DNA of 64,000 nucleotides from NCBI GenBank assembly GCA_964016885.1, contig OZ024742.1, positions 144,646,001 through 144,710,000 on the forward strand, read 5' to 3'. The DNA is from Eledone cirrhosa (lineage: Eukaryota). Of the stretch, positions 3,420 through 43,699 are shown piece after piece. The notes beneath the pieces are model-generated. The model made no database searches, was not told the origin of the DNA, and saw nothing but the letters and a program-made list of their open reading frames with translations. Numbering within the stretch: the stretch's first letter is position 1; every line of letters begins with the position of its first letter. Both the position numbers and the translations under genes were made by a program.

Positions 3420-4490
3420 TATTCCGAGTCCCTACATTAAATTATTAGAATTTTCTCAGTCCCTACGCCTAAAAGAGTATGCACTCTGGGTAAATCTAAT
3501 ATTAAACTCATTAGTTGTTAAACCCGTATAATTCCTCTGGATATCATCTGTTGGTACGAGGGCGGCTGTATAAAACTTTGAAAGGTACGATCCTTTCAGA
3601 GGAGAATTGACAGGGTCTCACCAGTTACTTGTGTGTGTGTTGTGTGGGTGCGTCATTTTTTCTGTTATACCAAGCGAAATTGAAAGTAATCCTATCTAGA
3701 CAGGAGTAGCTAGCTTTACTCTTGTGCAAATTGAAGAGTTTATGGTCACTGTGGCTGTGCGGGTAATGTCTGCTAAGTAGGTACAAGAAGCTGTTAGTTA
3801 TATTCGTAAATAGTATACATCTAGATTAAATGTAGGGTTGAACCAAGTTAGATTTCTCTTACTAACTCACTTTGGAGTGGATGGGTTGTTCTCCATGTAT
3901 ATTAGTTTATCCTTAACCCCACGCCCTGTTAGAGCCTCGTTGTAATGAATGCAGCCTCCTCAACGATTCTTTTGTCGGATGATAAGCTACAGATTATTTT
4001 GTTAATCTCAAGGTTCCTAACAATTGCTGAGGGCTTCCTTCTAACAAATTCTACTTGAAGAATATGACATTAGAATCGATTCCGGAGCCACGTAGTTCCG
4101 AAGATAGCTTCTGAAACACACATCTGTGAATGCGTCCATTCTTATTCATATTTCACCTGCTTTTGTTCTTCTTTTATAATTTTCAGTCATTGGACTGTAT
4201 TCTAGTCGACTCCAGAATATATTTTCACTCTGGTACTTATTTTAATAAATCTATATTTGTAATCAATTGTCTAAGGTATCATTTTTACACAAAACTGTTT
4301 TTTTTATATAAGCATGAGTGTTGTGTAAAACACATCAACGCGTACAAATACAGTGTTAGCTATCATTTTCCAGTTTGCAAGGAACAATGTTTAAATGACA
4401 TAGTGTGAGCTCTGCCAATATATCCAGTATATTTGAAATCATACTCGATAGTATTACATTCAAAAGAAATCTTTTTTCAACTGTCCTGAT
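3420..4490 (-). pseudogene. Decayed Penelope-like RT/GIY-YIG remnant
   Basis: Minus-strand fragments resemble DV..LYT.IPH, S.HP and C..C...Y.GET...L.ER motifs. No intact ORF. Confidence 0.4.
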
Positions 4491-4719
4491 GAGGTTTTCT
4501 CCCGTTTTGGTTCTTTCTATTATATTATAATTATTGCCAATTGTAAAATAAGAAATATATCTAAAAATGTTCTTCCTCTTCTTTTTCTTCTGTCTTTTTT
4601 TTTCTATTTCTATTTATGCTTTTCATTTTCTATTTTGTTCGTCTGGTTTTCCCGGTATTCTTCTATTTCTCTTCTTCCAGTCATTGTTATTCTCCTTCCT
4701 CTATCATTCCTCCACCTCC

Positions 4720-5545
4720 CACCCTCCTCCTCCTCCTCCTCCTCCTCCTCATCATCATCATCTTCATCATCATCATCACCCTGACCCTGTTCTACCTTCT
4801 CTTCTTCTCCCTCCCCCCCCAACTACTTCTCCTTCTCCACCTCCTCCTTCTTCTTATCATCATCATCATCATCATCATCATTATTATTATTCCATTTCCC
4901 TCATATGTATTTTTTATCTTCTATTTTGTTTTCCCACCCACTTTCGTTTTCTGTCCGTTCCAAATTTTCTATATTTTTTCTTTCTTTTCTTTTCTTTTCT
5001 TTTCTTTTCTTTTCTTTTCTTTTCTTTTCCTTTCTTTTCCTTTCCTTTCCTTTCCTTTCTTTTCCTTTCTTTTCCTTTCTTTCCCCATCTTTTACCGTTT
5101 TCTTCCCTTTACTATCTTTTCTCGCCTTATGTATTTTAAACGTATCCTTTTGTTCACATATCCTCCTCCTCCTCCTCCTTCTCCTCCTCCTCCTCCTCCA
5201 CCACCTCCTCCTCCTCCTCCTCCTCCTCCACTACCTCCTCCCACCCTATCCTTCTCTCCTTCTCCTACACCTCCTTCCTCCTCATTATCATCACCATCAT
5301 CGTCATCATAATTATGGTCGTCGTCATCATCATCATCGTCATCATCATCATCACCATCATCATCGTCATCATCATCATGGTCGTCGTCATTATGATCCTC
5401 ATCATCATCATCATCATCATAATCGTCATCATCATAATCATCGTTATCATGTATCATCATCATCATCATCATCATCATCGCCATCGTAATTATCATCACC
5501 GTAATCATCATCATCATCATCATCACCTCATTCAACTTCATTTGT
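4720..5545. repeat. Compound simple repeats (CCT)n, (CAT)n, (TTTTC)n
   Basis: Directly visible; source of the poly-P/H/I pseudo-ORFs. Confidence 0.95.
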
Positions 5546-5575
5546 AACACACACACATAATATATATATATATAT

Positions 5576-6345
5576 ACTAGCTGAATTACCTGGCGTTGCC
5601 CGGGTTATTGCTGTTCTTATTCAGATTAGTAAACAATAAATATGAAGATAGATATTTTGAAATAATTATAAGAAAAAATACATATTTTATGAAAAACAAA
5701 AATCAAAATTGTAATGATAATTGAATTTAGAAATGAAAATCTGTCAATCTTGAAACACCTTAGGGTAAACAATATTCATTGTGTAATTTTCTTGTTGGTG
5801 TCCAAATGAATAAATTGCTGCTACACACTCACACACATACACTTTCACATACACTTTCCCATACACTCACGTACATATACTAAGACAGACACACACAGGC
5901 ATACATTCACGCACACATATTACTTGTCTGTCAACACATATGTATCTGTATGTGTAGATGTGTGTGTGTGTGTAATTGTCCGTGTTTGAAGATAATGTGT
6001 ATGCAACTTACTAAGGCTATATTTCTGTGTAGATGTGTGTGTGTGTGTGTGTTTAATTCTCTGAGGCCTAACGTACGTAACGAACTCGCAAACACACACA
6101 CTCACAGACACATACACACTCATATACAAAATGTGACGTCGTAGTCGTGGTGTACTATAGTCGACTATAGAAATATTACTTTAGATAAAATGATATTTTG
6201 TTTTAATCCAAATGAAAATAAAAATTGCATGTTGATACTCCGGGGGTTTAATACTATTACCTTGTAAAATTTGATTTGATTTGGTCCAGCCGTTTGAGAA
6301 TGCATAGTAACAGACAGAGAGACAGAGAGACAAAGACATGACAGA
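5576..6345 (+). mobile_element. Non-autonomous Helitron-like (Lep1-type) element
   Basis: Starts ACTAGCTG..ACCTGGCGTTGCCCGGG (small 5' hairpin) and ends AAATTTG...TGGTCCAGCCGTTT...ACAGACAGAG repeats, resembling Lep1-like rolling-circle derivatives (from recall). Confidence 0.5.
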
Positions 6346-8357
6346 ATTGTTAAAATGGAATGTAGTTACGGTTGTTACGTTTGAAGTTAAAATCCAACTG
6401 AGGCCAACTTAAGGGGCCGATGAAATAGAGTATCAGTCAAGTAATGGGTCTAACCCTACCCCATCTCCCCAAATAACTTCAGTTCTTATGTCAAAATTAG
6501 AAGCTATACCCACGCACAAATTTAGGTCCACACTGTTTTATTCTGGAGAGTTAAGTTTTTTCACCTTTCCGACTTCGGTAGCCAAAGTTGTCATTACTGT
6601 GTCTCTAAGGTAATCATCTAACCATCGGTGATTTATTTTTTCCGCGCTCACTTCGGAATGCCCCTCGCTTATCTCCCCTCCCTCCCCAAAGCCTATAACA
6701 ATTTCACAAATTCAAAAATAGCGAATCAAATATGTGAAAGAAACACGTCTTACTAGATTTTGATCTGTTCCCACTGTCATGGCAGTGAGACCAATACTGT
6801 TCGTAGCCATAGCATTTTGGTTACTTCAATTGTCTGGGCAACTGTGACAAATTCGACAATGACAACAACAATAACATCAAACACGACGACAACAACTACA
6901 GGAGTGATGGTATACTTATAACCTTCAAAAGAAGTCACTTCCCTATAGGAAACAACAGCACCCGCAGCAGCAATGAAAGCGCTAGCAACAGCAACAGCAA
7001 CAGCAACAACTAAAACTTTAGAAATAAGAACACTAACGGCACAATTGACAGACGGAAACAATTGAAAAAGACCAACAGTAACAACAAAAGCAGCAGTAAC
7101 AACAGCGACAACAACAACGATGACCAGTACACCAATCGCAAGTTTGAAATACCACCAGCAGCAACTGCAACAACGTTTTCAAAATGGCAGCGAAAAGGTT
7201 TAATAAAAGTTTGAACCATATCGACATTACAATTATCACGGAAGTTACACATACACGTGCAGTTTGCCCCTCCATTCTGTCGATCAGCAGCAACTTGACG
7301 ATATCATTAAACCCAGCTTGAACGCAGTTAATTACTGGAGCTGGAGCTGGAGTGAGGGGGTGGAAAAAATATGGGATGGCATTACAATCTCTCTGTAAAA
7401 TGTGACCTACAGCGATAATTTCGCCAGCGGCAATCTGGGAAATCCGTGTCAGACACAGGCTTTGTTACCTCACAAGTTGGTAAAGTACAGGCTTCTCTCC
7501 GATAGGTTTCTTGTCGATCGCATTGTGATAAAAACATCTGGTTTGACAAGCCCTAGAACCACATCTATACTCATTTTGATCGGAATGGAGATGGTCATTC
7601 GCAAGAACAAGTCTTACAAAGTAGACTGGTTCTTTCAGCGCATCTCTCTCACCATCATTTGAAGCGATGCATTCGCCCTTTTGTCCACCGTGACAATGAA
7701 ACACGAGAAACTATGCTTCCTTTCCTTTATTGTATTCATGAAATAAAAATTTCGTATTCTATTAAATTAATGACTTTTGCAACAATATAAAGAACTTTCT
7801 GAAAACGACTTTCTCAGAATTCCTGAATGATAAATTGATGTCTTACAACAACGAAATCTCTATATGGTCGATCGGACCGGCTAGAAATACTCGCTAAATC
7901 CTGCACAGCCTGCACATTAACATATTAAAAAAGAGGACACATTGGGAAATACAATTATGAATCGAAAAAAAGATAAAACAAATAAAAAGACGGATTTTTT
8001 TAATCATGGTGCTGTCTGCGCAATCAGAACAGATTTGGTGGAGAGAGTTAGATAAAAAAAAAACAACAAAAAAAAAAAACAACAGCAGCAGAAGTAGCAA
8101 CAAGAAAAACAACATATTGAGAATAATAGAGAATTCCTGATGATAAATTGCAATCTGATATAGGTTGATAAATAGAAATTTCAGATTACAGAGCATAATA
8201 GACAGACTGTGCGAATTAAATTAAATTAAATTCGGTGCATGTAAACATATCTAGTTATATTATCTCACAGAGAAGACAAATCGGAGTTCAAAGAAATTAG
8301 TTAAATGTGAAATCATATGTTTGTACACACACACAATCAGTCACCACGCGCGTGCAA

Positions 8358-10325: not shown

Positions 10326-10409
10326 GTTATTCCGGGTTGAATCGGAGGTAACCACAGTAAATAATGTACTCAATACATAGCAGAGTATAAATGTTTTAAT
10401 ATACATGAG

Positions 10410-10456
10410 ATTCTACAGGACTAGAACTGTTTCATTCTTTAGAAATCATCAGGAAT
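10410..10456 (-). ncRNA. Type I hammerhead ribozyme
   Basis: Reverse complement reads ATTC-CTGATGA-TTTCTAAAGAAT-GAAA-CAG ttctagtc CTG-TA|GAAT: stem I ATTC/GAAT, stem II TTC/GAA, stem III ACAG/CTGT, GUA site. Confidence 0.8.
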
Positions 10457-10464
10457 CATCAGGA

Positions 10465-10511
10465 ATTCCTGATGATTTCTAAAGAATGAAACAGTTCTAG
10501 TCCTGTAGAAT
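10465..10511 (+). ncRNA. Type I hammerhead ribozyme
   Basis: ATTC CTGATGA(10469-75) T-TTC TAAA GAA-T GAAA(10488-91) CAG..CTG, GTA(10505-07) GAAT. All core nucleotides and three stems present. Confidence 0.8.
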
Positions 10512-10525
10512 CTCATCTATATTAA

Positions 10526-10590
<65 letters not shown>

Positions 10591-10667
10591 ACGAAGGAAA
10601 TGTGGTAAGGAACCAGATGGACCACAACGCACCAAAGTACTCAATAGTTAGGGTAGTAGAGTGGGTA

Positions 10668-10784
10668 ATAGGAACGAGTAGGACCCCGACGGCTGAGGTC
10701 AAGCCGTTTCGACGGCTAATTCTGGACTAGAATTAGCCGTCGAAACGGCTTGAGCTCAGCCGTCGGGATCCTACTCGTTCCTAT
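10668..10784. repeat. Near-perfect 117-bp palindrome carrying the 3' half of a hammerhead in each arm
   Basis: About 56-bp arms around loop GGACT. Each arm has GAAA-CGGCT...AGCCG-TC-GGG but no CTGANGA. Confidence 0.8.
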
Positions 10785-10823
10785 ATATATATAAAAGTCT
10801 AAAGTCTGTCTGAAGCCAGAAGA

Positions 10824-11656: not shown

Positions 11657-11688
<32 letters not shown>

Positions 11689-11702
11689 ATAATAATAATA
11701 AT
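11270..11702. repeat. Compound (CTA)n/(CTG)n microsatellite ending in (AAT)5
   Basis: Directly visible. (AAT)5 at 11688-11702 abuts the LINE 3' end. Confidence 0.95.
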
Positions 11703-11955
11703 GATTTCATTTATTGGCCACAAGGGCCGACATATAGGGGACAACACAATAGACAGGGACAGTGGGGGTTTACATAGAGATCGAGTAAGTATAAATAACA
11801 AAAAAACAAAATAACAATAAAAATACAACAATGAAAGTTCCCCAATAAGAGGGATCACCACCCAGGGTTGACTCAAGCACCCCACCAGTCCTGAGCCACC
11901 CGACGCTCCTAGGGCACCCGGGAAGGGCACCCCTCTCCTTCTCGAATTCACCAGC

Positions 11956-14900
11956 CTACAGGCGCATGATCAGAGTAGGCCCACTCACGCGGGCCATTCT
12001 CGCCACATTCACCCACCTTTCAGTAAATGTACTGGGGGGCAGCACTTCTCTCTCCACCCTCACCTTCCTTTCCAAGTGAAACTTGAAGAAGTTGATGAGG
12101 GATTGGCCGAAGAGAAAAGTGTCTGTCTTCAGTCCTTTCAACCTGGTCCACCATGCAACCTCTTTCGCTACTGCCACCAGGCAGAGGAAAATTGCCTGCC
12201 CTTCCTGACCAAAAGAAGGCGGCGGGTCAATCTTCACTATGGACTCGGACGATAGCCGGATCCGTTCTACACGCGACAATAGCTGTTCGACATAACCCCA
12301 CAAGTCAGCAATGCACGGACACTGGACGAGTGCGTGCAGAACGGTTTCGTCGCTCTGCGCGCATCTCGGGCAGGTTCGTCTGACAGCACTTCCGTGCCTG
12401 TAGAGTTTATCCCGAACCGGCAGCGCCCCCCGGTAGCACTGCCAAGCGAGGGATTTCTGGAAGTTATCCATCGTCCCCGGCTCGAAAGTCCTCCGGAACA
12501 TACTGGTCAGTTCTACTTCGTTGACGCCCAGAGCCTCTCCTAGTACGTCATCGCACTTGCCCTCCACTAATCCTCTATAGAAATCTTGAGTGGAAGTTCC
12601 ACTGACCGCATTGCCCACCTTGCAGAGTGCAGTGAGCGCCTGGCAACATTCCAGATGCCAGTCGCCCAGTCTCGGTCTCTTCTTGACCCAGGACTGCAGC
12701 TCAGTCAAAGAGATGAGCTGCGGAAAGGCCCGTCTAACAAACGGCGACCACACCTGTTCACCGTTTAGGCAAAATATCTGGAGATGTCGCAGCCTCAGCG
12801 CATGTCTGCGCATCATTAGCCACGGCATGCCCAGCCCTCCACGAAGAGGGTGCTGGCAGCAGATGGACCGCCTCACCAACGGGACCCGTCCCCTCCACAA
12901 AAATTTGAAAAGGAGCCGTTCCAAATTGGCGAGGCGTGGACGGGGGCAAGGCACGACGGTCAGGCGGTAGTAGATGACGGACGCGATGTACGCGTTCGCC
13001 ACCTCCGCCCGCCCTTTCAGTGATAGCTTTCTCTCAGCCCATTTCTGGGTGAGGTTGGCTATCCTGCTCGTCACCTCGTCCCAATTCTTATCCACCTGGA
13101 GGTCTGGTCCGAACCAAACCCCGAGCAACTTTACCGGTCCGTCTGTCCAGCGCCCAACGACGCTGTTGGACGGCATGGACTTGCCTCTCCAGGTGCCGAG
13201 CTGCAAGCCCACCGACTTTTCCGGGTTAAGTTTTGCTCCCGTCAACCTTTCATATTCCTCCAAATGGGTGCGGATCACCTCGATTTCCGAGGTGTCCGAC
13301 ACCATCACGGTGATGTCGTCCGCATAAGCGGACGCAGCCTTTCTACGTCCCGGTTCGAGCGGGATGCCCTGCAACAACTCCAGCTTCCGCAGTAGAGGCT
13401 CAAGAGTCAATACGTACAGAAGTGAGGAGAGAGGGCACCCTTGACGGACCGATCGAGAGATCTGAAACGGTTCCGAGAGGTGGCCATTAACTTTGACCAC
13501 CGAGCGGATGCCGCTGTACATTGCAGCGATCCAGCTTCTGAAGACGGGGCCGAAGCCAGCCGCCTCGAGGACAGCCTCCAAGTACCGATGGTCGACCCTA
13601 TCGAATGCTTTCGATTGATCTAAATTGATCAGAGCCCCACCGAAGCCAGGTTTGCACCCAACCCTCTCTATGATGTATCGCATGAGGTGGAGGTTGTCGT
13701 GTATGGACCTGGTCGGGATTGCGCAAGTTTGCGCCTCCCCAACCAAATCTTTGACGACAAGCGCCAACCTTTTCGCTAACACCTTGGCCAAAATCTTAAA
13801 CTCTGTGTTGAGCAGGGTTATGGGCCTGAAATTATCTAGTGTGTCCCTCTTGTTCTCGTCTTTCCTTATCAGCGTCACTACGCCACGGCTCACAGAACTG
13901 GGAATGCTCCCGTTCTGCTGCCAGTTGCAGTAGAGCGCTTCGAGGAGATCGGAGAACAAGTCTGGCATATTTACGTAAAGCTCGTAGGGCAGACCATCCA
14001 AACCGGGTGACTTGCGACTCGAGCAGCCGACAAGGGCGTCCTGAATTTCGGCTGATGTTATCGGCTCTTCGCAGCGCTCAGCGTCGGCCGTCGAGAGGCG
14101 TGGCAAGCCGTCGAGGTAGGGACTGAAGTCCGCCGCCGTCTCCGACTCACCCATCCTCCCGAACAATCGAGCAAAGTGCTGGCGAAAGGCCTCACACATC
14201 TGCTTGGAATCGCTCAGTTCGTGTCCATCTCGATCCGTCAAAGACCGAATTGTGGTTTTATTTCCACGCTGCGTCTCTGCAAAGCGAGCCCATCGGGCAG
14301 CTTTGGTTCCCTCGTTCCTCAGAGCACGCGCCTTAGCTCTGACAATGCAACCTTCGTGTTTCGCATTGAAGAAATGGTCTAGTGCCATTCTCGCCGCTAG
14401 CACGTCTGTTGCAATGCCACTACAAATAGCCTCGTCTAACTTAGCTATCAGCCCCTCCTCCTTTCTATTTTTCTCTATTGCTACTTCTTTGCTAAATCCT
14501 ATCGAGGTTGCTCTAATCTCTCTTTTGAGTGCCCCCCACCACCTGTTGTTGACAACCCCCCCTGTCAACTTTTGCTTAACTAAGTTGTTGACCCGGTCCC
14601 TGTAAGCTTTACGTGCCGGAAACGACATGTTTAGCTTCCAGTAGCTAGGTCCTAACCTACGTGTCTTATCTAGGTCGACCATACAGATCACAAGCTTGTG
14701 ATCTGAATAGGCAACCGTTTTAAAATGTGGACATCCTACACTATTTCTATCTCTTTTCCTAATGAAAATCCTATCTATGTACGATCTAGATGACCCTATG
14801 CGATTGGTCCAGGTCCATACTGGCGCATTAGGGAAATCTAGTCGGTACCTGTCAGACAGTTGAAACTGGCTGATCAGGTACTTGAGGCTTTTGCACCCCC

Positions 14901-15375
14901 CGCTCCTATCAGATACTCCCACACAATCCCAGCGTGCTTCTAAGATGCCATTCCAATCCCCTATTAACAGTAAAGGGCGAGACGTAAGCAGAAAGTTTTC
15001 CAGGCGCCTAAAGAAGTCCGGCCGACCGGCCCCAGTAGGGGCGTAGACGGCCACCAGTCTAAAGGCACCACCTTCGCTATTGCTCACGTCCAGGACCACC
15101 AACTTTCCGTCAGGATCCCGGAAGATTGACCTTACCTCGAGATCCAGACATTTCCTAAACAGCACAGCCACTCCACCTCCCATTCCCGGCCGACTAACAG
15201 ATGCAAAGATCTGATAATCGTCGAAAATCGGCGCCAGTGCGCGTGTGTCGGAAATTCTGGTCTCGCTGATGGCAATTACATCCATTCCTAGTGACCTGAG
15301 GTCGTTGAGCAAGTGACCTTGCTTCCAGGGCGACCCCAGGCCACGAACATTTAAACTTCCTACTCTTATGGCCAT
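11956..15375 (-). CDS. LINE ORF2: APE endonuclease, reverse transcriptase and C-terminal Cys/His zinc motif (1139 aa)
   Basis: APE: LNVRGL, ISET, GDWN, IDRI, SDH. RT: KSPGLDG, FRPITLLN, DQSKAFDRV, RQGCPLS, YADD. L1/Tx1-type LSLKGR and GGLG motifs. CPRC-x8-H-x4-C near the C-terminus. Confidence 0.97.
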   Translation of the reverse strand: MAIRVGSLNVRGLGSPWKQGHLLNDLRSLGMDVIAISETRISDTRALAPIFDDYQIFASVSRPGMGGGVAVLFRKCLDLEVRSIFRDPDGKLVVLDVSNSEGGAFRLVAVYAPTGAGRPDFFRRLENFLLTSRPLLLIGDWNGILEARWDCVGVSDRSGGCKSLKYLISQFQLSDRYRLDFPNAPVWTWTNRIGSSRSYIDRIFIRKRDRNSVGCPHFKTVAYSDHKLVICMVDLDKTRRLGPSYWKLNMSFPARKAYRDRVNNLVKQKLTGGVVNNRWWGALKREIRATSIGFSKEVAIEKNRKEEGLIAKLDEAICSGIATDVLAARMALDHFFNAKHEGCIVRAKARALRNEGTKAARWARFAETQRGNKTTIRSLTDRDGHELSDSKQMCEAFRQHFARLFGRMGESETAADFSPYLDGLPRLSTADAERCEEPITSAEIQDALVGCSSRKSPGLDGLPYELYVNMPDLFSDLLEALYCNWQQNGSIPSSVSRGVVTLIRKDENKRDTLDNFRPITLLNTEFKILAKVLAKRLALVVKDLVGEAQTCAIPTRSIHDNLHLMRYIIERVGCKPGFGGALINLDQSKAFDRVDHRYLEAVLEAAGFGPVFRSWIAAMYSGIRSVVKVNGHLSEPFQISRSVRQGCPLSSLLYVLTLEPLLRKLELLQGIPLEPGRRKAASAYADDITVMVSDTSEIEVIRTHLEEYERLTGAKLNPEKSVGLQLGTWRGKSMPSNSVVGRWTDGPVKLLGVWFGPDLQVDKNWDEVTSRIANLTQKWAERKLSLKGRAEVANAYIASVIYYRLTVVPCPRPRLANLERLLFKFLWRGRVPLVRRSICCQHPLRGGLGMPWLMMRRHALRLRHLQIFCLNGEQVWSPFVRRAFPQLISLTELQSWVKKRPRLGDWHLECCQALTALCKVGNAVSGTSTQDFYRGLVEGKCDDVLGEALGVNEVELTSMFRRTFEPGTMDNFQKSLAWQCYRGALPVRDKLYRHGSAVRRTCPRCAQSDETVLHALVQCPCIADLWGYVEQLLSRVERIRLSSESIVKIDPPPSFGQEGQAIFLCLVAVAKEVAWWTRLKGLKTDTFLFGQSLINFFKFHLERKVRVEREVLPPSTFTERWVNVARMARVSGPTLIMRL

Positions 15376-15404
15376 GCTGGCAGGATGAATGGGAGAGGAA
15401 AGGT

Positions 15405-17267
15405 TTACTTACCTTCCGGGGTCTTGTGAAGGTCGGGTGGTTCGACCTCCATGGTTTGTGGGGTTTCTTTTGGGAACCCCTTTAATAGTCTTGACGTGGG
15501 TTTTACGTTCGGGGTTCCCACATCCCGAGGAAAGCTCTTTCGAATTTCTTTGTATGAAGCGAGCGACATTCGCATCAGAAGCAAATTATCTGGTACGCGA
15601 AATGTGCTCGCTTCAAATGTTTCCCCGTCTTTTTCGATGTTTGTGCTTCGTGCTACATGGGCCATCAATTCCTTGTTGGCCCTTCTGGCAAGCACGAAGT
15701 TTTTAATGTTTTGTTGCTCGGGTTTTATTTGTTCGTGTGATTGTGGTGGTGATAGCTTTGTTAGTGTTGTTTCTATTGTGTCTGCGTTTGTTGTGGGTGG
15801 GGTGTCTGTAGTTTCTGATGTTTGTGTGTCTATTTGTTCTTGTGTCTGTTTAGCTTGTTTGCGTTTGGGGGATTTTGGTGGTTGTGTTGGTGATGCTGTG
15901 GGGAAAATGTTTGTGTGGGTGGTGTGTGTATTTTTTTTTGTGGGGGTGTTTGTGCTTTGTGGATTTCTTTTTTTTTTGTGTTTTGTTTTTTGTATTTTGG
16001 GGGACTTTGGTTTTCCCTCATCTTCACTGCTGGAGGATGAGGGGTCTGTGGCTGTGAGCGTGTTTGTGTCTGAGTGAGTGTTTATGTTCTTGTTCGTGTG
16101 TGTATTTTGGGGGGGAGGGGGAATGGGAGAGCTTTCCTCGTTTCCCCCCTGGGTGTGCAATTTTGGTGGTTCCATTGTTGACGGTGTTGCTGGTGGTCCT
16201 TGTCCCGGCGTCGCCAGCAGTGGAATCTTTCGACCCCTTGCGCTTTTCGGCAGTTGAGGGCAGAAGGCTCGCAAGTGTGTCGTTTCCCCACAAAGGAAAC
16301 AATGCGGCCTTTTGCCCTCAGTCATTATATGCAACACCCTCCCGTTTTGGAGGCGGATGTGGTCCGGGATTGTTTTTACGTTTTCGGGTCTGATTTGGAG
16401 CAGTATCTCCAGATCAACCCCGGACCAGTCGTCCCTGGCAGTTCTCGTTGCCTCTACCGGGACTGTATCCGTTCCTTCCACGATTACGCAACCCAGGAGC
16501 CACCACATATCAAGTCCTGGTGGAATCCTGGGAATGCGCACACGTGCTATTCGTTTTCCCATGTGGGAGGGGTACATTATGACCTTGCTGGTTTTGCAAG
16601 GGGTCATTGAATGCTTCACAGCGAGGGCTTCAGACTTGAACAGCACCGAAACGGTGCCGTATTGCCTGCCCCTCTCTATGAAGTCTGTGTCCTCTCTGAT
16701 GTGTTTCAGTGCGGCTTCTATGTCAGCTTGGGCGATTATCGCTGCCCTCTTTGTCTCTACTGAGATGCATCTGAAATGCACCGTTCTTTTTTCCACTGCC
16801 TCAATGGCTTCTGCCGGGACAGTTAAGTTTGCCCAGGTCTGCTCTTGATTTATGATTTTCCAGGCCTGGGCCAACTTTTCCTCTCTGTTGGTTAAGTCGA
16901 TGCTGTAGCATGGTCTCCTTTTAGCCGCTGCCACAGCAGCGAAAGTGTTCTTGTTGGTGTTGTCACTGTTGTTGTTCTTGTTGGTGTTGCTGCTGCTATT
17001 GCTGTTGTTGTTCTCCCCTGTGTCGTGGTTACCTTCTGTGCTGTTGGCCTTGTTGGTGCTCTCGCTATTACCACCTTCTGCGCTGTTCGGCTTGTTGGTG
17101 TTGGTGTTGTCGCTGTTACCACCTTCCGCGCCGCTCGGCCCGTTGGTGCTGGCACTGTCGCTGCTCACATTCGTGCTGGTGGCGCTCCTCGCCTCACCTC
17201 TCCTCTCAACGCTCAAGTCGCCGTTGCACGACAGCAGACCCGCCTCTAGGGGGCGTGGCTCCGCCAT
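15405..17267 (-). CDS. LINE ORF1 (gag-like nucleic-acid-binding protein, 620 aa from the first ATG, MAEPRP)
   Basis: ATG in aaacATGG context at 17267 (the ORF track extends to an upstream TTG). TFAAVAA motif, single zinc knuckle CFLCGETTHLRAFC (C-x2-C-x4-H-x4-C), low-complexity N/S-rich and T/P/K-rich flanks. Confidence 0.92.
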   Translation of the reverse strand: MAEPRPLEAGLLSCNGDLSVERRGEARSATSTNVSSDSASTNGPSGAEGGNSDNTNTNKPNSAEGGNSESTNKANSTEGNHDTGENNNSNSSSNTNKNNNSDNTNKNTFAAVAAAKRRPCYSIDLTNREEKLAQAWKIINQEQTWANLTVPAEAIEAVEKRTVHFRCISVETKRAAIIAQADIEAALKHIREDTDFIERGRQYGTVSVLFKSEALAVKHSMTPCKTSKVIMYPSHMGKRIARVRIPRIPPGLDMWWLLGCVIVEGTDTVPVEATRTARDDWSGVDLEILLQIRPENVKTIPDHIRLQNGRVLHIMTEGKRPHCFLCGETTHLRAFCPQLPKSARGRKIPLLATPGQGPPATPSTMEPPKLHTQGGNEESSPIPPPPQNTHTNKNINTHSDTNTLTATDPSSSSSEDEGKPKSPKIQKTKHKKKRNPQSTNTPTKKNTHTTHTNIFPTASPTQPPKSPKRKQAKQTQEQIDTQTSETTDTPPTTNADTIETTLTKLSPPQSHEQIKPEQQNIKNFVLARRANKELMAHVARSTNIEKDGETFEASTFRVPDNLLLMRMSLASYKEIRKSFPRDVGTPNVKPTSRLLKGFPKETPQTMEVEPPDLHKTPEGK

Positions 17268-17507
17268 GTTTTTTTTGAGAAAAAAATTATTATTTTTTTC
17301 AAAATAAAGTTCAAATATTTGGGCCAAAAGGCCCAAATATTATGAGTTATTCCTTCACAGGATACAAATTAATGTCTTATAATGCTTCAGCGGTACAAAA
17401 AATAAACAATTCTCTACAATTAATCCTCAAAAATTGCTTACTCACGGAGCTTCAAAAAACGTACATCCACTTTCGTCAATAATAATAATAATAATAATAA
17501 TAATAAT

Positions 17508-17720
17508 TTCTACTTTAGGCAGAAGGCCAGCAATTTTGAAGTGGAGGGGAAAGTCAATTAAATCGACCCCAGTGCATTACTGGTGCTTCATTCTATCGAC
17601 CTCATAAGGATGAAAGGCAAAGCTAACCTCGGTGGGATTTGAAATCAGAACGTAAAGGGACGTAACTATGCTGGAAAGCATGGCGTCCGACCCTCTACCG
17701 ATACTGCCAATCCACCGCCC
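17508..17720 (-). mobile_element. tRNA-derived SINE (dominant family in this window)
   Basis: A-box-like TGGCAGTATCGG, B-box-like TTCAAATCC, central GCCTTTCATCCTTA.G.GGTCGATA, tail GCCTAAAGTAGAA(ATT)n. More than 10 related copies in the window. Confidence 0.9.
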
Positions 17721-17738
17721 AATAATTAAAATAATAAT

Positions 17739-18600
17739 GGTCTTTTTTATTAGCCACACAGGGCTGACATTGAGAAAGGATGAAAATGATGGTAACAAAA
17801 AATACGTAAAATTAATCAAACAAAAGAAATTTCCTCAATAAAGAGGAGTCTTTCGAGGGTCCATCGTAGAGAGAGAGCCTACAAAATGCTATTGTCATCC
17901 TAACCGCTAGGGAAAGTGCCACCTCCCAGTTGTCCTCCTCTTATCTACAAGTTCATACTCATAGCAGGCTCGTTCCCTTGAAACATGTATGCCATACATT
18001 CCCCCTCTCGACACTGATTTTCCTCTATAAATGAAGCCTAAAAAAACGAAGAGAAAAGTGCTTGTGCTCAACCCTTTCAAGCACATCCATGGCTACCGGG
18101 TAGATAAAAACAGTCTTCCATTCCTAGCTAAAGGAAGGCGACTGGGTGATCTTCACAATGAAATCAGAAAGGATCTCAGAGCAGCGATCACGTCTACTTA
18201 TGAAGTGGATTTGGAGCCTAGATGGTTCTGATATTGGTCGGAGGTTTTCAGTGCATCAGACGGAGAGCGGTTAAGGCATCGGATGTGGGTCAGAGGACCA
18301 TGTCAGACATTTCAAATTAATGCAGTCATGGAGACATCTTGTATCTTTCATTGGAAACTAGGTACTAAGTGTCAGTGCATGTGGAAAGTTGGAGAGATCT
18401 GAAAGGCTTGTTGAAAGAGGCTGGCAAAGGGAAGCAATATTACTACTATGCATCGATGCAAGAGAAGAGATCAAATCCTTCTTAAACACTGGAATCTCGA
18501 GTGCAAATGTATCAAAACAGACGAAATGGCGCCAATCTTCCTGACTGTTAGAGTTAAGCGTCTGCTTCTCATAAAGACCTATTCTTACCGACAAGTGTAT
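17739..18600 (-). mobile_element. Old 3' fragment of a LINE related to the intact Tx1-like element
   Basis: Translates VKITQSPSFS*EWKTVFIYPVA versus ORF2 VKIDPPPSFGQEGQAIFLCLVA. 3' end GTCAGCCCTGTGTGGCTAATAAA matches the intact 3' end. Confidence 0.75.
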
Positions 18601-27195: not shown

Positions 27196-28020
27196 TCAAA
27201 CGAACTGTATATGATTTTTTTATATCTAGTTAGAAGACACTACAAAAATGTGCCAAAATGTACTAAAAAATTGCTAGAACTAAAATAGTATGACCTACTA
27301 ATCTATAATGTATGTGTTAAACGCTGCTAAAACGCGTCAAATCTAGTCCGTTTTCCGCTAAATTGGCAACTCTGAGATTTACATAGGCACGCATACAATT
27401 TTATTCTAACTCATGCCCTCGATTGCATATTTTTTGTCGACATAGATCACTACCAGTTTCCTTTGACACAATCAAAAGACAGTGTTCAAAGCCTAAATTG
27501 TCTTCAAAAGGAACTGAAATAGTGAAAAAGAAACTTATAAGAAATGATAAGAGGGAAAATTAAGAAACTGACCGCACAAAGAAATGTACAGGAATATATG
27601 AATACTAATATCAATGAGCAGGAATATATGAATACTAAAATGAGTTTGCACAATTAAACTTTCAGCATTCACCTCTGTTTTCATTGCATTTACTCCTCTA
27701 TCATTTTAGATTTTGCCATCTAGATTTTCGGAGGGGATAGAGCTCAGCTTTTGAGTTATAACGTGTCTTTATGAAGACAGAATTATTTTATTACATACCT
27801 TTATTACTTTAACTTCAGTGAAGCTTAACTTGTAGTTCTACTCAACAATATGAGCATAACTGGGCAGTAAACATTATTAACATAACAAATACCTTTCAAC
27901 GCTTTCAATTTGCGGTATTTTTAATTGTAATGTTCTATTGATATTTATGGGTTTTGAAACTTGTAAATACATTTAGATTAGTATGAATGTTATACGTTGA
28001 CATTATTTAAAGTATCATTA

Positions 28021-28347
28021 GGCGGTGGATTGGCAGTATCGGTAGAGGGTCGGACGCCATGCTTTGACGCAAAGAGTTACGGCTCTTTCCATTCTGAGTT
28101 CAAATCCTGCCGAGGTTAACTTTGCCTTTCATCCTTATGGGGTCGATGAAATAAAGTACCAGTAATGCACTGGTGATTGCTGGCCTTGTGCCAAATGTAG
28201 AAACAATTATTTAAAGTATCATTATTATCTGAGTTCAAATCCCGCCGAGGTTAACTTTGCCTTTCATCCTTACGGGGTCGATAAAATAAAGTACCAGTAA
28301 TGCACTGGGTATTTGCTGGCCTTGTGCCTAAAGTAGAAACAATTATT
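28021..28347 (+). mobile_element. tRNA-derived SINE with 19-bp TSD plus truncated tandem copy
   Basis: TSD ATTATTTAAAGTATCATTA at 28002-20 and 28206-24. Second copy 28228-28347. Confidence 0.92.
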
Positions 28348-28753: not shown

Positions 28754-29208
28754 GGGCGGTGGATTGGCAGTATCGGTGGAGGGTCGGACGCCATGCTTTC
28801 CAGCATAGTTACGTCCCTTTACGATCTGAGTTCAAATCCCGCCGAGGTTAACTTTGCCTTTCATCCTTACGGGGTCGATAAAATAAAGTACCAGTAATGC
28901 ACTGGGTAATTGCTGGCCTTGTGCCTAAAGTAGAAACAGTTATTTTAATAAAGGGCGGTGGATTGGCAGTATCGGTAGAGGGTTGGACGCCATGCTTTCC
29001 AGCATAGTTACGTCCCTTTACGATCTGAGTTCAAATCCCGCCGAGGTTAACTTTGCCTTTCATCCTTACATGGTCGATAAAATAAAGTACCAGTAATGTA
29101 CTGTGCCAACAGTAGAAACAGTTATTAATTGTTTCTACTTTGGGCACAAGGCCAGCAATTACCAAATGCATTGCTGGTACTTTATTTTATCGACCCCGTA
29201 AGGATGAA
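28754..29208 (+). mobile_element. Two tandem SINEs plus an inverted 3' fragment
   Basis: Copies at about 28754-28943 and about 28952-29127, inverted fragment about 29128-29208, all bracketed by GTTATTA.TGAAATA (28738-52, 29216-30). Confidence 0.9.
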
Positions 29209-29648
29209 AGAAACAGTTATTACTGAAATATTTACATGCTGGATAAAATATCAATGAACGTATGAAGTTGATATAACAATCGTTCTATCAAGCTAATCAT
29301 TTCCCTTTGTTGCTATTGTAATCATTATCCAACATAAAGGATACTGTTATCTTTTATTGATATGCAGAATACTTCTCAACCAGATCCCCAATGGAATACG
29401 TTCTTCTCTATTCATAACTAAGGTCATTTAAAATATCACCATACACTGATTTTTTATGTCAGTATGTATGTATGCATGCATACGTAAATGTGTTTTTGTA
29501 TATATATATATGTAAGCATTTAACTCTGTATATATGTATTATGCAGGCAGGCATATATGTATGTATGCATGTATGCAGGCATATATGTATGTATGTAGGC
29601 ATATATGTATGTATGCATGTATGCAAGCATATATGTATGTATGTAGGC

Positions 29649-31900: not shown

Positions 31901-33131
31901 ATTCCAGAGTATATATTTAGTAACTGTGTTTTTGTCGCATATTCGTCTGTTATCTGCTTATACCACTTATCAATTTTTTACGTTAGATGTTTGCATATTA
32001 TCCAATAGATATAGTTACCTACAGGTCACGCCAGTGGATATATAGTCAATCTTTTCCCAGAACTAGCTTTCCGTAAATGAGATAGTCGATTGTTTCTTAT
32101 GTCGATTACAGTTAATTTTATTAGACTTTTATTATATAATTTTACTTTGGTAGAACTTTATGTATTGTTAGATATTGATATTCTGTAACTAAAATCGGAC
32201 TTTCCATTTCTGCCTCGAGTCTTTTGAACCATTGCAAGCTTTCATATTGACTTTTATTTTGGTTGATTTCTTTTCTGTCCAGTCTGGCAACATATTGACC
32301 ATCGAAAGATTATTCTCTCTAATGCTTATTAGTGATTTATTTTTGAAATTCAGTTGTGATTATAGTTTTTGTGTCTTTTAACCATTTCTGTTGCCTTGAC
32401 TTTATCTACCTTTTTCTCGTCGGTCTAATTAGTTTCTTGCATTACATTATTGTTTTATTTTGTACATAAAAGAAAGTTTTGGAGTTATTTTCGTGTTTTC
32501 ATATTATACTGACCTGTGTATATTTGTTAGACAGTAAATATTTTCTGCATCTACCCTGGTGTGTGTGGTGCGGTAAATAAATATATGTATATACAGGTTC
32601 AAACACAAAGGAACCAAATACCCACTGTCACTGCCTCCATCTGTCCCGCTCTCCCCAACTCTCACTATCATAAGGAAATGGGGGCCCACGCTCTGGCCAC
32701 TTCGCGGCCCCGACGGATAGAATAGAGAGCCCGTGGTTACTCTGCAGTATTTTTTTACCTGTATCAGATCCTTTCCCCTTTGTGTGAGTGGTAGCTCTAA
32801 TTTATCTATAAAATAACATCTTTAAGAATGGTAACTTTGAAATGCAGAAAGTAGTTTCTTTTGTTTACTTTTTCAGGCTCTCCACTTCATTTAATTTCCA
32901 ATTTATTAAACTGACCACTGCATTTTATATGATATGATATGACTAGCGTGTTTATAACTATAATATAACTTCGGAAATTGATTTCGTTTTTTTATATTAT
33001 TCTCACTATACTAACGTAGTAATCTTTTTTTTTTCTGTTGTTTTCTTTTTTTTTGTGTTTCTGTATACTTCGTTTTTTCGATTTAATTTACACCTAAGTA
33101 AATGTATATGTTCTATTATTTTGATATATAA

Positions 33132-33511
33132 GGCGGTGGATTGGCAGTATCGGTAGAGGGTCGGACGCCATGCTTTCCAGCGTAGTTACGTCCCTTTACG
33201 ATCTGAGTTCAAATCCCGCCGAGGTTGACTTTACCTTTCATCCTTACGGGGTCGATAAAATAAAGTACCAGTAATGCACTGGGTAATTGCTGGCCTTGTG
33301 CCTAAAGTAGAAACAATTATTTTGATATATAAGGGCGGTGGGTTGGCAGTATCGGTAGAGGGTCGGTCGCCATGCTTAGAAGCATAGAGTTACCGTCTGA
33401 GTTCAAATCCCGCCGAGGTTAACTTTGCTTTTCATCTTTTCGGGGTCGATAAAATAAAGTACCAGTAATGCACTGGGATAATTGCTGGCCTTGTGCCAAA
33501 AGTAGAAACAA
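33132..33511 (+). mobile_element. Two tandem SINEs sharing one triplicated target site
   Basis: ATTATTTTGATATATA(A) at 33115, 33316 and about 33511, bracketing copies that start at 33132 and 33333. Confidence 0.92.
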
Positions 33512-33559: not shown

Positions 33560-33690
33560 ATGCAAAATACACAACCTAAAGTTATCCCTATATGTATAGC
33601 GAGAAATTATTGCCACTATTAAATGTTTGTGTTCAGATGTGTTTTGTAATGTGTTGTATTTGCGGGTCATTGTGGCAAATAAATATCATC
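33560..33690 (+). mobile_element. Probable 3' UTR remnant of a Tx1-like LINE
   Basis: GGGTCATTGTGGCAAATAAATATCATCAT resembles the intact 3' end GGCCCTTGTGGCCAATAAATGAAATCATTAT. Confidence 0.45.
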
Positions 33691-33949
33691 ATCATCATCA
33701 TCATCATCGTCATCATCACCATCATCATCATCATCATCATCATCAGCAGCAGCAACGTCATCATCGTTATCAGTGGATGACAAAACTGATAGAGTATAGT
33801 TGCTACCACGTTGTAGGACGGCCACGGCTATCAGCTGAGTCCATTGTGCAGATCACACACCCGCATTTCTTTGGCCAGAAAAACCAGGCAGTGTTTATTT
33901 GCCTGTTGGTCATAACGAAATAGGTTGTGTGAAGGACAAAACTTTCCTC

Positions 33950-34400
33950 TTTAGCCAAGTACTAATAAACTTTTTAAAGTTCACTTGACAAGAAAATTGA
34001 GGGTGGAGTGGGAAGTACTGTACTTCAGCATATTTGTTGAAAGATGGATGTGAATGTGGAGGATGGTCTGAGTAAACGGGCCTGCTCTGAATATAGATTT
34101 GTAGATTGGAGGAGGGCAAAAGGAAGAAGGTGCATGCTTTAGTTTTTAGAGTGACCGTCTTTTGAGTGCCTTTTCACAAGTAGCCCTCGGATGTATCCCT
34201 CGTATTGTGGGATTTTCTTTGTTTCATTTTATTGTTACCTATTTTGTTTTTATTTCTTGTTTTAACTTCTCTCGTGTAAACCCATACTGTATCCACCTGT
34301 ATCATCCTGTGTCGCCCTCCATCTTTATGTAGACATATATGGGCCCCAAGGTCTAAATCCAACCCTGCCTCTTGAGAGACCTGTACTTAAAATTCCCACG
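33950..34400 (-). pseudogene. Further decayed Tx1-like ORF1 remnant
   Basis: GGRHRMIQV and LKTKACTFF resemble RGRQYGTVSV and CKTSKVIMY of the intact ORF1. Confidence 0.35.
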
Positions 34401-40360: not shown

Positions 40361-40526
40361 AATACCTAATTGAAAAATCTATGCTTCTGACATATAAATC
40401 TCGCACGTATAGATCTGCACTTGACAAGATACCTTCCTCAGTGACTTACAAATTGTTTGATGATATAGATAACAAAGTAGGGACTATCGTTATTCAGGAA
40501 AGACAAAATGGACTGATATAAACAAC

Positions 40527-40950
40527 GGGTGATTGGCAGTATCAGTAGAAGGTCGGACGCCATGCTTTGCAGCATAGAGTTACGCTCCTTTATGGTCTGA
40601 GGTCAAATACCGCCGAGGTTAACTTTGCCTTTCATCCTTACGGGGTTGATAAAATAAAGCACCAGTAATGAACTGGCATAATTGCTGGCCTTGTGCCAAA
40701 AGTAGAAACAATTATGTATTTTATTATGTGATGACAGAAGAGTAGTAGACTGTCAGAATCGTTAGAGACTCAGACAAATTGCTTTGTAGTATTTGTTCCA
40801 TCCCTTTATGTTCTGGGCTCAAATCCCGTTACGGTCAATTTTGACTGTCATATTTCAGAGGATCGATAAAAGAAAGTACCAATCATGTACTAGGATTGAA
40901 TTACTCCTCCCTTCAAATTGCTGGCCTTGAACCAAAATTAGAAATCAACA
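40527..40950 (+). mobile_element. tRNA-derived SINE followed by an older diverged copy
   Basis: Family motifs at 40527-40715. Diverged copy at about 40740-40950. Confidence 0.85.
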
Positions 40951-42420: not shown

Positions 42421-42440
42421 TATATATATTATTATATAAT

Positions 42441-42615
42441 TGTTTCTACTTTAGGCACAAGGCCAGCAATTACCCAGTGGATTACTGGTACTTTATTTTA
42501 TCGACCTCGTAAGGATGAAAGGCAAAGTCAACCTCGGCGGGATTTGAACTCAGACCGTAAACTATGCTGGAAAGCATGGCGTCCGACTCTCTACTGATAC
42601 TGCCAATCCACCGCC
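42441..42615 (-). mobile_element. tRNA-derived SINE with 16-bp TSD
   Basis: TATATTATTATATAAT at 42425-40 and 42619-34. Confidence 0.92.
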
Positions 42616-43699
42616 ATGTATATTATTATATAATGCTCAGTATTTATACTTTGAGCTTGTTAATTACAGGGTATCAATATGAGTTAGAAACTCTGTATTT
42701 TATTTGTATATACATACATACATATATATACACTAACATTCTAGAGATCACTTCTTTAAAAAGGCCTTGAGATTCAAATTAACTCAGTACATTCAATAGT
42801 CCACAAACAGGTGGCTGTCTTTCTCGGTGCTAGCTATTGTAAACCCATTAGTATCAGTTCTTCTGAAAGCAAGCTGAATCCCCATTAATCTCCCATTAAA
42901 TCCTATCCGATATTTTTACTGACTCTCACCTAACAGATCGTGCACTAAATATACTTTCCTTCGTCAGCCCATCCTGTATTCATTCACTGCCCGAAACCTA
43001 ACCGGCTCAATAAGTAAGAGAGGTTTTTCAGAAGATTTAGATTACCCCACGACGATTAAACTGATACTACAAACAGGCAGTAAAAGGTTGGTGGTGGGTT
43101 AAATAACCTGTAGATAAAATGACTCGACTATTGAAGACTCACATGGCATGTTCCATCATTTTTGCATTCTAGACTCGAAAATAATTATTTCACCAAACCT
43201 GATGTTTTGGTGAATCAAATCGTCATATAGTCAAACGATTTATTCCCCTTTTTTCCTATCGTTATTACATTGGCTTACGCTGCATACTATTTATTCTTCA
43301 TAGAATAATATCTCCACTGAGTTTCACCTTCTTTATCGTGCATCAAACACTTTGTTCAAACTGAGTTAAAGTGATTATTGAAATTGATCATTTCTAAGAA
43401 AAATCGTTATTTATAAATGCTTCTAAGATACCATGTAACCATAGTGATAATGGTGTTTTTCTTCTTTTAACTAACCCACAGGTCAGCTCTGATCAAGCAG
43501 AGCTATGATCAAAAGCATTCCAACTATAGCCATCTTGTCTTTTTATGGATATCTAGGACTACATTACGCAATTTTATTTTTTAAACAAGGTCGTCTGATA
43601 TTTCAAGCTCCTATTTTTAGCAGGTCAAGCGAATACGAAGGAGCACCATTTCATATCTAAGGCTGGATTTAAATTCAATATTGTTTATTAATAGAAATC

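What the first reader, a model, noticed from the sequence alone, without database searches (positions are those of the whole stretch)
11690..11735. LINE 3' stem-loop shared with the dominant SINE: candidate Tx1 LINE/SINE partnership
Seen: the LINE ends TGTCGGCC-CTTGT-GGCCAATAAATGAAATCATTATT. The SINEs end TGCTGGC-CTTGT-GCC(A/T)AAAGTAGAAA(CA/TC)ATTATT. Both form a short stem with the same CUUGU loop. The older LINE copy (17750) shows a compensatory AGCC/GGCT stem, and 33665 has GTC-ATTGT-GGC. Established: stringent LINEs recognise a 3' stem-loop shared with partner SINEs (e.g. eel UnaL2/UnaSINE1), whereas mammalian L1 relies on poly(A). Inference: this Tx1-type LINE is the mobiliser of the most abundant SINE here and uses stringent 3' recognition.
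Basis: partly seen in the sequence, partly recalled or inferred. Interest (0 to 1): 0.82.

Follow-up and report, generated by a model that had tools for sequence, protein, structure and literature searches.

The report
Octopus Tx1 LINE shares SINE tail
An intact jumping gene (Tx1-type LINE) in a likely octopus genome ends in about 30 letters that resemble the end of the commonest short repeat (SINE) nearby, and both sit at ATT-starting sites, so this LINE lineage likely copies the SINE, a kind of partnership we did not find described for animal L1/Tx1 elements.

Summary
The sequences are as described. An intact L1/Tx1-type LINE (11703-17477, minus strand; nearest named protein from Argonauta) ends in a 4-bp CUUGU hairpin, a 13-nt spacer and ATT. 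The dominant tRNA-type SINE ends with the same loop and spacing. Identity is 19-20 of about 30 nt: above chance when ends are anchored (71 of 121,858 positions score as well; 2 of 5,000 shuffles), far below known pairs.

Added here:
- The shared ATTATT is largely target DNA. Five of 13 SINE ends have perfect 12-19 nt duplications starting there, the L1-clade size range.
- In public runs the LINE's last ~45 nt are far more widely shared than the UTR before them.

- The SINE stem is only 3 bp and rarely forms in prediction (P<=0.26 in 11 of 12 copies).
- The one compensatory pair sits on a CpG.
- 33665 is not shown to be this LINE.
- CR1 and Dong ends were not testable.

Verdict: a Tx1-lineage partnership is likely (~0.65), probably through a sister family. 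Recognition of the terminal segment is less sure (~0.45), and the hairpin's role is unproven.

The parts
11703..17477 (-). Full-length, intact L1/Tx1-type LINE. The 5' boundary is inferred from the end of the flanking (ATT)9, not proven.
15405..17267 (-). ORF1, 620 aa from the first ATG, with a CX2CX4HX4C knuckle seen in the translation; no Pfam hit
11956..15375 (-). ORF2, 1139 aa from the first ATG: APE endonuclease, reverse transcriptase (YADD), zf-RVT
11736..11955 (-). Family-variable part of the 3' UTR (low read depth; 110 identities with 57 mismatches and 65 gaps to the old relative)
11703..11735 (-). Conserved terminal segment: 4-bp hairpin 11728-11716 with CUUGU loop, AATAAA, ending GAAATC; resembles the SINE tail
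11688..11702 (-). (ATT)5 after the LINE: probable 15-nt target-site duplication and/or tail repeat, followed by (AGT)n
17478..17504 (-). (ATT)9 tail of a SINE, into which the LINE appears to have inserted
17505..17720 (-). Long-tailed SINE copy, itself inserted at the ATT end of the older LINE
17739..18330 (-). Decayed 3' part of an older relative of the LINE; last 34 nt 25/34 identical to the young end; AGCC/GGCT stem with 6-nt loop
26871..27182 (+). Long-tailed SINE (ends 27083) plus a 5'-truncated SINE (27096-27182) nested in its ATT tail with a 14-nt duplication
28020..28341 (+). SINE (ends 28205, 18-19 nt duplication) plus a truncated SINE inserted in its downstream duplication
28754..29210 (.). 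Two tandem SINEs on + (ends 28938, 29120) and an inverted truncated SINE (29130-29210, minus)
33131..33510 (+). Two tandem SINEs sandwiching a 16-nt target duplication that starts ATTATT
33654..33683 (+). Unassigned end motif (GGTC-ATTGT-GGCA, AATAAA) followed by (ATC)n; matches the SINE tail as well as the LINE does; parent element unknown
33812..34330 (+). Decayed 3' fragment of another relative of the LINE (67% DNA identity); no recognisable hairpin or AATAAA at its end
40523..40946 (+). SINE (ends 40710) and an old long-tailed SINE (ends 40946); no duplication found for either
42441..42616 (-). SINE with a 16-nt perfect target duplication starting ATTAT

Best explanation
The LINE at 11703-17477 is an intact L1/Tx1-type element whose last ~30 nt resemble the SINE's last ~30 nt, and the ORF2 protein of this lineage (likely a sister family rather than this exact one) likely copies the SINE in trans by recognising that inherited terminal segment. 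Shown: intact EN-RT-zinc finger ORF2; end-anchored tail similarity with the same loop and a 13-nt spacer; ATT-starting insertion sites for both; 12-19 nt duplications around SINEs. Inferred: the SINE took its tail from an ancestral member of the lineage. ORF2p would bind the terminal segment, nick at ATT-starting sites, prime on an AUU-ending RNA paired to the nicked strand, and leave a ~15-nt duplication. Because each insertion leaves ATT at its end, later copies would land in earlier ones, giving the tandem and nested stacks seen. Whether the CUUGU hairpin as a structure is the signal is untested; it is well predicted in the LINE and poorly in the SINE.
For: Tail similarity
- End-anchored score of the SINE tail at the LINE end is reached by 71 of 121,858 background positions, 4 of 3,643 ATTAT-followed positions and 2 of 5,000 shuffles; RTE ends score at background.
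- Within 450 nt after the ORF2 stop, the best SINE-tail match (24.0) falls at 11702, one base from the end; 0 of 17 distant relatives reach 24, best 21.5.
- Two of the 3 older long-tailed SINEs end in GAAATC like the LINE.
- The young subfamily lacks ~30 nt just upstream but keeps the terminal 31 nt.

Target site
- 12 of 13 SINE ends are followed by ATTAT with <=1 mismatch (8 exact); background is 3.0% and 0.23%.
- Perfect duplications of 12, 14, 16, 19 and 19 nt in 5 of 13 ends. L1-clade duplications are 7-18 nt, mostly 13-15; RTE 7-15, mostly 10-12 (PMC6007223 passage).
- The LINE sits in a SINE's ATT tail, and that SINE sits at an older LINE's ATT end.

Reads
- Summed depth in run X1 is 467,483 at 11707-11722, 3,923-7,160 at 11787-11914, and 175,850 or more at 11963-12138. 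X24 shows the same dip.
- Loose ends show other upstream sequences joined to the same terminal segment, and (ATT)n beyond it (88 contigs, agreement 0.61).
- Of the 40 substitutions shown, only one lies in 11710-11733; it turns a stem G-C into G-U.
- Young vs old LINE: 25/34 identical at the end, much less in the UTR before it.
Against: - Only 19-20 identities over 29-31 nt. Known pairs are closer: the tobacco TS pair is 'nearly identical' over ~100 nt (PMC3747384).
- Unanchored, the LINE end is only one of several non-SINE peaks at 24-27.5; three of the others lie inside the LINE's own ORFs.
- The SINE hairpin has P<=0.26 in 11 of 12 copies, and its inner pair is broken in 2 of 3 long-tailed copies.
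- The alignment fold pairs the SINE tail with its own head instead (covariation term only -0.31).
- Six of 13 SINE ends gave no perfect duplication and two gave only 6-7 nt.
- The unassigned 33665 end scores as well as the LINE (20.5 vs 20.0).
- The 33812 relative has no recognisable hairpin.
- Depth sums are not copy numbers. 5' truncation and RAD sampling raise terminal depth, the dip is only 2-8 fold in X4, and 372 substitution rows were hidden.
- No CR1, L2 or intact Dong end was available for comparison.
Confidence: 0.45

Rival explanations
1. The Tx1 lineage does mobilise the SINE, but recognition is relaxed: an AUU-ending RNA pairing with the nicked ATT target is enough, and the shared 30 nt are a drifting leftover of tail capture.
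For: Tail identity is only ~65%. The SINE stem is 3 bp, mostly unformed and broken in old copies. The crocodilian SINEU/Tx1-Mar link rests mainly on shared targets, with poly(A) tails and no shared 3' end found for SINEU-1 (PMC4494074). Distant Tx1-type loci end in A-rich tails without this hairpin.
Against: The terminal segment is more conserved than the UTR among LINE families. The young SINE subfamily lost upstream DNA but kept this segment.
Confidence: 0.2
2. Another endonuclease-type LINE clade (CR1, L2 or an unclassified family, possibly the parent of the 33665 end) is the true partner, and the Tx1 likeness is a convergent 'short GC box, A-rich spacer, ATT' ending.
For: Reported mollusc SINE partners are CR1 and L2 (PMC4758252, PMC4824008). 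CR1 covers 62 Mb in 169 families in O. vulgaris, against 56 Mb in 80 for L1-Tx1 (PMC13282606 supplement). The 33665 end matches the SINE tail equally well and has no Tx1 homology upstream.
Against: SINE duplications of 12-19 nt fit the L1 clade; CR1 and L2 usually leave short or no duplications (recalled, not checked). Two proven Tx1 ends both match above chance. RTE ends in the window do not match.
Confidence: 0.2
3. A microsatellite-targeting Dong-R4 element mobilises the SINE, which would explain the ATT/TAA target without Tx1.
For: Dong-R4 is the second largest LINE group in O. vulgaris (93 Mb) and has 1,129 recent insertions. Dong is recalled to target TAA repeats. A decayed element of that general type lies at 39200-40400 (type assigned from recalled motifs).
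Against: Recalled Dong ends read TAA on the sense strand, the reverse of the ATT seen here. The 39200-40400 remnant shows no SINE-like tail among the top 40 peaks of the window scan. Many SINE targets are not microsatellites, only ATTAT-starting AT-rich DNA.
Confidence: 0.08
4. The resemblance is chance: two AT-rich ends with a short GC box, found after the fact, plus a general tendency of retroposons to land in AT-rich repeats.
For: The match is short. Unanchored, it does not exceed the best chance peaks in 128 kb. Folding z-scores are near zero. The comparison was chosen after it was noticed.
Against: Ends, loop and 13-nt spacer all align. The old LINE repeats the match (56 of 5,000 shuffles). 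RTE ends in the window run into (TATG)n-type repeats, not ATT.
Confidence: 0.07

Closest known systems
SINEU / Tx1-Mar of crocodilians (PMC4494074; passages and sections 15-16 read)
   Same: A Tx1-clade LINE inferred to mobilise a SINE from a shared target preference; tandem SINEs sandwiching a duplication.
   Different: SINEU has snRNA heads and poly(A) tails, and no LINE sharing the SINEU-1 3' end was found. Here the head is tRNA-type, the terminal 30 nt are shared, and the target is ATT-starting DNA rather than a Mariner element.
ZmSINE2/3 with LINE1-1_ZM, and SINEX-3_CR with L1-1_CR (PMC3747384; sections 7 and 21 part 1, passages)
   Same: L1-clade LINEs with a conserved last ~45 nt shared with tRNA SINEs; a hairpin was proposed.
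   Different: Plants and green alga only. Their hairpins are -10.8 to -17.7 kcal/mol with several compensatory changes; here the stem is 3-4 bp with one doubtful compensation, in an animal Tx1-type lineage.
UnaL2/UnaSINE1 and zebrafish ZfL2-1/ZfL2-2 (PMC4176376 passages; UnaL2 paper seen as listing only)
   Same: The proposed mechanism: ORF2p binds a 3' stem-loop, and a 3' repeat follows.
   Different: L2 clade, tested by assay, loop-specific. Here nothing is tested and the SINE hairpin is weakly predicted.
Keno, Kibi, Koshi (target-specific Tx1 families; described in PMC4494074 and PMC4640811 passages)
   Same: In an RT tree the element's group is sister (support 0.97) to a clade holding five U2-flanked, APE-encoding loci. 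Target preference is typical of Tx1.
   Different: The target is ATT-starting DNA, not U2 or (TC)n/(TTC)n. Only ~29% protein identity to those loci, which end in A-rich tails without the hairpin.
Octopus tRNA SINEs OK/OR1/OR2 (Ohshima and Okada 1994; not seen, known from citations in PMC4824008 and PMC4758252)
   Same: Abundant octopus tRNA-derived SINEs; the SINE here is probably one of them or a relative (inference).
   Different: No sequence was available to compare. No LINE partner is listed for an octopus SINE in the 58-pair table.

Membership tests
L1/Tx1-type non-LTR retrotransposon | ORF2 with APE endonuclease, RT and C-terminal zinc finger | tested here: met
   Pfam Exo_endo_phos, RVT_1, zf-RVT; best solved-structure match human L1 ORF2p, E 1.8e-57, against 3e-22 for R2
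Tx1 clade | RT groups with known Tx1 families | tested here: inconclusive
   Sister (0.97) to U2-flanked Keno-type loci in a 77-sequence FastTree rooted on an RTE remnant (92 extracted, 15 dropped as near-duplicates), but no named Tx1 or L1 reference was in the tree
Tx1 clade | ORF1 with a CCHC knuckle (feature recalled) | tested here: met
   CX2CX4HX4C read in the ORF1 translation; no Pfam hit
Tx1 clade | Target-sequence preference (common, not universal) | tested here: inconclusive
   Young and old ends and read loose ends are followed by ATT; tail and target cannot be separated for the LINE because both flanks are (ATT)n
tRNA-derived SINE | Pol III A and B boxes in the head | tested here: met
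   7 copies match an A-box/B-box pattern, 0 in 100 shuffles; a stricter pattern found none and was loosened after seeing the copies; ARAGORN and Rfam found no tRNA
tRNA-derived SINE | Short, dispersed, non-coding, with target duplications | tested here: met
   ~185-215 nt, 15 copies aligned; duplications in 5 of 13 ends
CORE/Deu/Nin/Meta SINE superfamilies, OR1/OR2 | Central conserved domain | tested here: inconclusive
   Short body motifs gave no matching family in the supplements searched (file 1 of each paper could not be searched); no Repbase or SINEBase sequences on hand
Stringent SINE/LINE pair | Shared 3' terminal sequence | tested here: met
   Above chance when end-anchored, but only 19-20 identities in 29-31 nt
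Stringent SINE/LINE pair | Conserved stem-loop with compensatory changes in both partners | tested here: not met
   No compensation among 12 SINE tails; low pair probability; one double change, at a CpG, in the old LINE; a G-U variant in reads
Stringent SINE/LINE pair | No other LINE of the genome matches the tail better | not testable with these tools
   No genome held; only RTE ends could be scored as rivals
Stringent SINE/LINE pair | 3' tail needed for mobilisation in cis and in trans | not testable with these tools
   Needs a retrotransposition assay

The most novel reading that the evidence does not exclude
An octopod Tx1 lineage uses stringent recognition of a minimal ~30-nt end (CUUGU hairpin plus fixed 13-nt spacer) together with an ATT-starting target, and it drove the expansion of a dominant octopus tRNA SINE. 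That would be the first shared-tail SINE/LINE pair for an animal L1/Tx1-type element in the papers searched. It would also be a self-feeding system in which every insertion makes a new target.
Probability: 0.4. Interest if true: 0.7.

Novelty: new variant of a known kind. Interest (0 to 1): 0.5.

Why it matters
SINEs are 11.7% of the O. vulgaris genome, mostly unclassified (PMC13282606), and no partner LINE for an octopus SINE turned up in the papers searched. A 2013 survey of 58 SINE/LINE pairs found only 3 SINEs with L1-clade tails, all in plants or algae (PMC3747384). It left open whether stringent or relaxed 3' recognition is ancestral in the L1 group. An intact animal Tx1-type element with a conserved end and a natural SINE substrate makes that question directly testable in a cell assay, and may name the engine of the octopus SINE expansion.

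Tried and rejected
- No whole genome is held, so copy numbers, age profiles and rival LINE ends could not be surveyed.
- Pattern scans for SINE or LINE-end DNA: viral contigs gave one chance phage hit and then none; genome contigs gave none. A protein scan of viral contigs found no relative.
- Metagenome relatives (80 loci kept of 362) were mostly 25-35% identical, too distant for covariation. The 21 reaching the C-terminal region show no such hairpin end by eye. They served only as controls and tree anchors.
- No RNA holder listed.
- Run X7 laid only 6 records and says nothing about the end.
- Rfam on the window gave only microsatellite noise. ESM Atlas gave unnamed EN-RT clusters. ARAGORN found no tRNA beside 51 of the loci.
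- Earlier findings: nothing returned.
- MAFFT misaligned the LINE and SINE hairpins, so pairs were counted by eye, not with the pair-count tool.
- Rejected: ATTATT as evidence of tail homology, since it is duplicated target in the copies where this could be resolved.
- Rejected: 33665 as the end of the 33812 fragment, since the order is wrong.
- Rejected: RTE as partner, since its ends score at background.
- Rejected: my early label of the SINE as CORE/OR1, which rested on recall and was not confirmed.

Full report
What is at the locus. The finding marks the 3' end of a full-length LINE on the minus strand, about 17477 to 11703. ORF1 (620 aa, CCHC knuckle) and ORF2 (1139 aa) are open. ORF2 has an APE endonuclease, RT and zf-RVT, and its best solved-structure match is human L1 ORF2p. 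The nearest named protein is from Argonauta hians at 70% over the RT region, so the window is likely octopod; the species was not determined. In an RT tree the element's group is sister (0.97) to a clade holding five U2-flanked APE-type loci. Insertion in U2 is the mark of Keno, a Tx1 family (PMC4494074 and PMC4640811 passages). The tree had no named references, so 'Tx1' is probable, not proven.

The SINE. The commonest dispersed repeat in the window is a 185-215 nt element with A- and B-box-like motifs. Fifteen copies were aligned, at 67-99% identity to their majority. A young subfamily lacks about 30 nt that three older copies carry just before the tail, but keeps the last 31 nt. I could not match it to a named family.

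The tail likeness. The LINE ends with a GGCC/GGCC stem, loop CTTGT, then 13 nt ending GAAATC. SINE tails have GGC/GCC, mostly the same loop, and also 13 nt, ending GAAATC in two of three old copies. Identity is 19-20 of 29-31 nt. With both ends anchored, 71 of 121,858 non-SINE positions, 4 of 3,643 ATTAT-followed positions and 2 of 5,000 shuffles score as well. The older relative ending at 17739 gives 248 of 121,858 and 56 of 5,000, and two RTE ends score at background. Without anchoring, the LINE end is only one of several chance-level peaks. The signal therefore comes from the alignment of the two ends, and it is modest.

The stem-loop claim is weaker than stated. The LINE hairpin is well predicted (pair probability 0.86-0.98). 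The SINE hairpin reaches at most 0.26 in 11 of 12 copies, and the old LINE's is 0.01 in a 120-nt context. None of eight ends folds better than shuffles. Among 12 SINE tails there is no compensatory change, two old copies break the inner pair, and the fourth pair is T-T in 7. The consensus fold pairs the SINE tail with its own head. The old LINE's A-U pair needs G>A at a CpG plus C>T. That C>T is a common family variant: 37% of depth in X1, 56% in X24, 0.2% in X4. It is one weak data point. The 33665 motif has no LINE homology upstream and scores as well against the SINE as the LINE does. It may be a divergent Tx1 end or a rival family.

Target sites add independent support. In 5 of 13 SINE ends the sequence after the tail is a perfect repeat (12, 14, 16, 19, 19 nt) of the DNA just before the element; the 19s may include 1-3 letters of the head. 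Two ends gave 6-7 nt and six gave none under the strict rule; one of those six has a longer repeat with one mismatch. In 156 cross-pairings, the 9 matches of 9 nt or more were all between adjacent copies or (ATT)n flanks. Twelve of 13 ends are followed by ATTAT within one mismatch, against 3.0% background. L1-clade duplications are reported as 7-18 nt and RTE as 7-15 nt (PMC6007223 passage citing Ichiyanagi and Okada 2008, which I did not see). The LINE itself lies between (ATT)9 and (ATT)5, inside a SINE tail that sits at an older LINE's end.

Public runs. On 11691-12150, run X1 has summed depth 467,483 over the terminal hairpin, 3,923-7,160 in mid-UTR and at least 175,850 over 11963-12138 in ORF2. 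X24 shows the same shape, X4 a 2-8 fold dip, and X7 laid only 6 records. Loose ends show different upstream sequences joined to the same end, (ATT)n beyond it, and tandem ends. Only 1 of the 40 substitutions shown lies in 11710-11733, but 372 rows were hidden. This suggests several families keep the last ~45 nt while the UTR drifts, as expected for a recognised end. Depth is not copy number, and truncation and RAD sampling also raise terminal depth. X1 records span 99% to under 90% identity (874/1694/2364/2208), so LINE and SINE ages can overlap.

Mechanism. Most likely the SINE took its tail from an ancestral member of this lineage and is copied in trans by its ORF2p. The protein would bind the terminal segment, nick at ATT-starting sites, prime on an AUU-ending RNA and leave a ~15-nt duplication. 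All of these steps are inferred. At 65% identity the closest partner is probably a sister family; O. vulgaris has 80 L1-Tx1 families, 13 recently active (PMC13282606). I put the lineage-level partnership at about 0.65 (0.45 with sequence recognition, 0.2 relaxed), CR1/L2/other at 0.2, Dong-R4 at 0.08 and chance at 0.07.

Against what is known. The 58-pair table lists no octopus and no Tx1 pair, and only three SINEs with L1-clade tails, in maize, sorghum and Chlamydomonas (PMC3747384). SINEU is tied to Tx1-Mar mainly by shared target, with no shared 3' end found for SINEU-1 (PMC4494074). Eight literature searches listed no paper on an octopus Tx1/SINE pair. The library lacks most subscription papers, and Repbase, Dfam and SINEBase entries could not be searched, so a database note may exist. 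One unsearched supplementary file each of PMC4824008 and PMC4758252 may bear on the SINE's family.

What I saw of each paper. PMC3747384: passages, section 7, section 21 part 1. PMC4494074: passages, sections 15-16. PMC13282606: first third of the text and the whole supplement. PMC4824008 and PMC4758252: passages and supplement searches. PMC4176376, PMC6007223, PMC3531059, PMC5786205, PMC8967140, PMC4640811, PMC5804259: passages. Recalled, from no call: Dong's TAA target, short CR1/L2 duplications, the CCHC knuckle as a Tx1 trait, the A/B-box consensus, and the RTE and R4-type labels for other remnants.

Verdict. A real, modest tail likeness backed by a shared insertion signature. A new variant of a known kind of partnership. 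The stem-loop mechanism is not shown. Interest 0.5.

Noticed in passing
window 51075-53080 (+): Decayed LINE with RT and C2H2 finger hits, RTE-type by recalled features. Its 3' end runs into (TATG)n-type repeats and does not match the SINE tail.
   Followed up: partly
window 21730-22640 and 57560-58010: Repeated non-coding pieces that look like RTE 5' and 3' ends joined without the coding part (bipartite non-autonomous element; label recalled).
   Followed up: no
window 39200-40400 (+): Decayed element with a weak zf-RVT hit and restriction-like endonuclease motifs (R4/Dong/Hero-like, recalled).
   Followed up: partly
SINE copies ending 17505, 27083, 40946: Older copies carry ~30 extra nt with a self-complementary stretch before the tail; the young subfamily lacks it.
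   Followed up: partly
SINE alignment A4, columns 22-37 with 192-206: Predicted long-range pairing of the SINE head with its tail, competing with the CUUGU hairpin; little covariation.
   Followed up: partly
window 26871-27182, 28020-28341, 28754-29210, 33131-33510, 17478-17740: Repeated nesting of one retroposon in the ATT end or duplication of another, as reported for SINEU-3.
   Followed up: yes
L011 1-123, 782-896, 5806-5947; also L002, L008, L009, L014, L015; L018 5892-6010: Metagenome LINEs flanked by U2 snRNA pieces (Keno-type), and one beside 5S rRNA.
   Followed up: partly
window 10407-10514 and 10650-10785: Two long near-perfect inverted repeats between (TA)n tracts, seen by eye.
   Followed up: no
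window 54400-54870: Long inverted repeat, one arm related to the repeat at 42260-42438.
   Followed up: no
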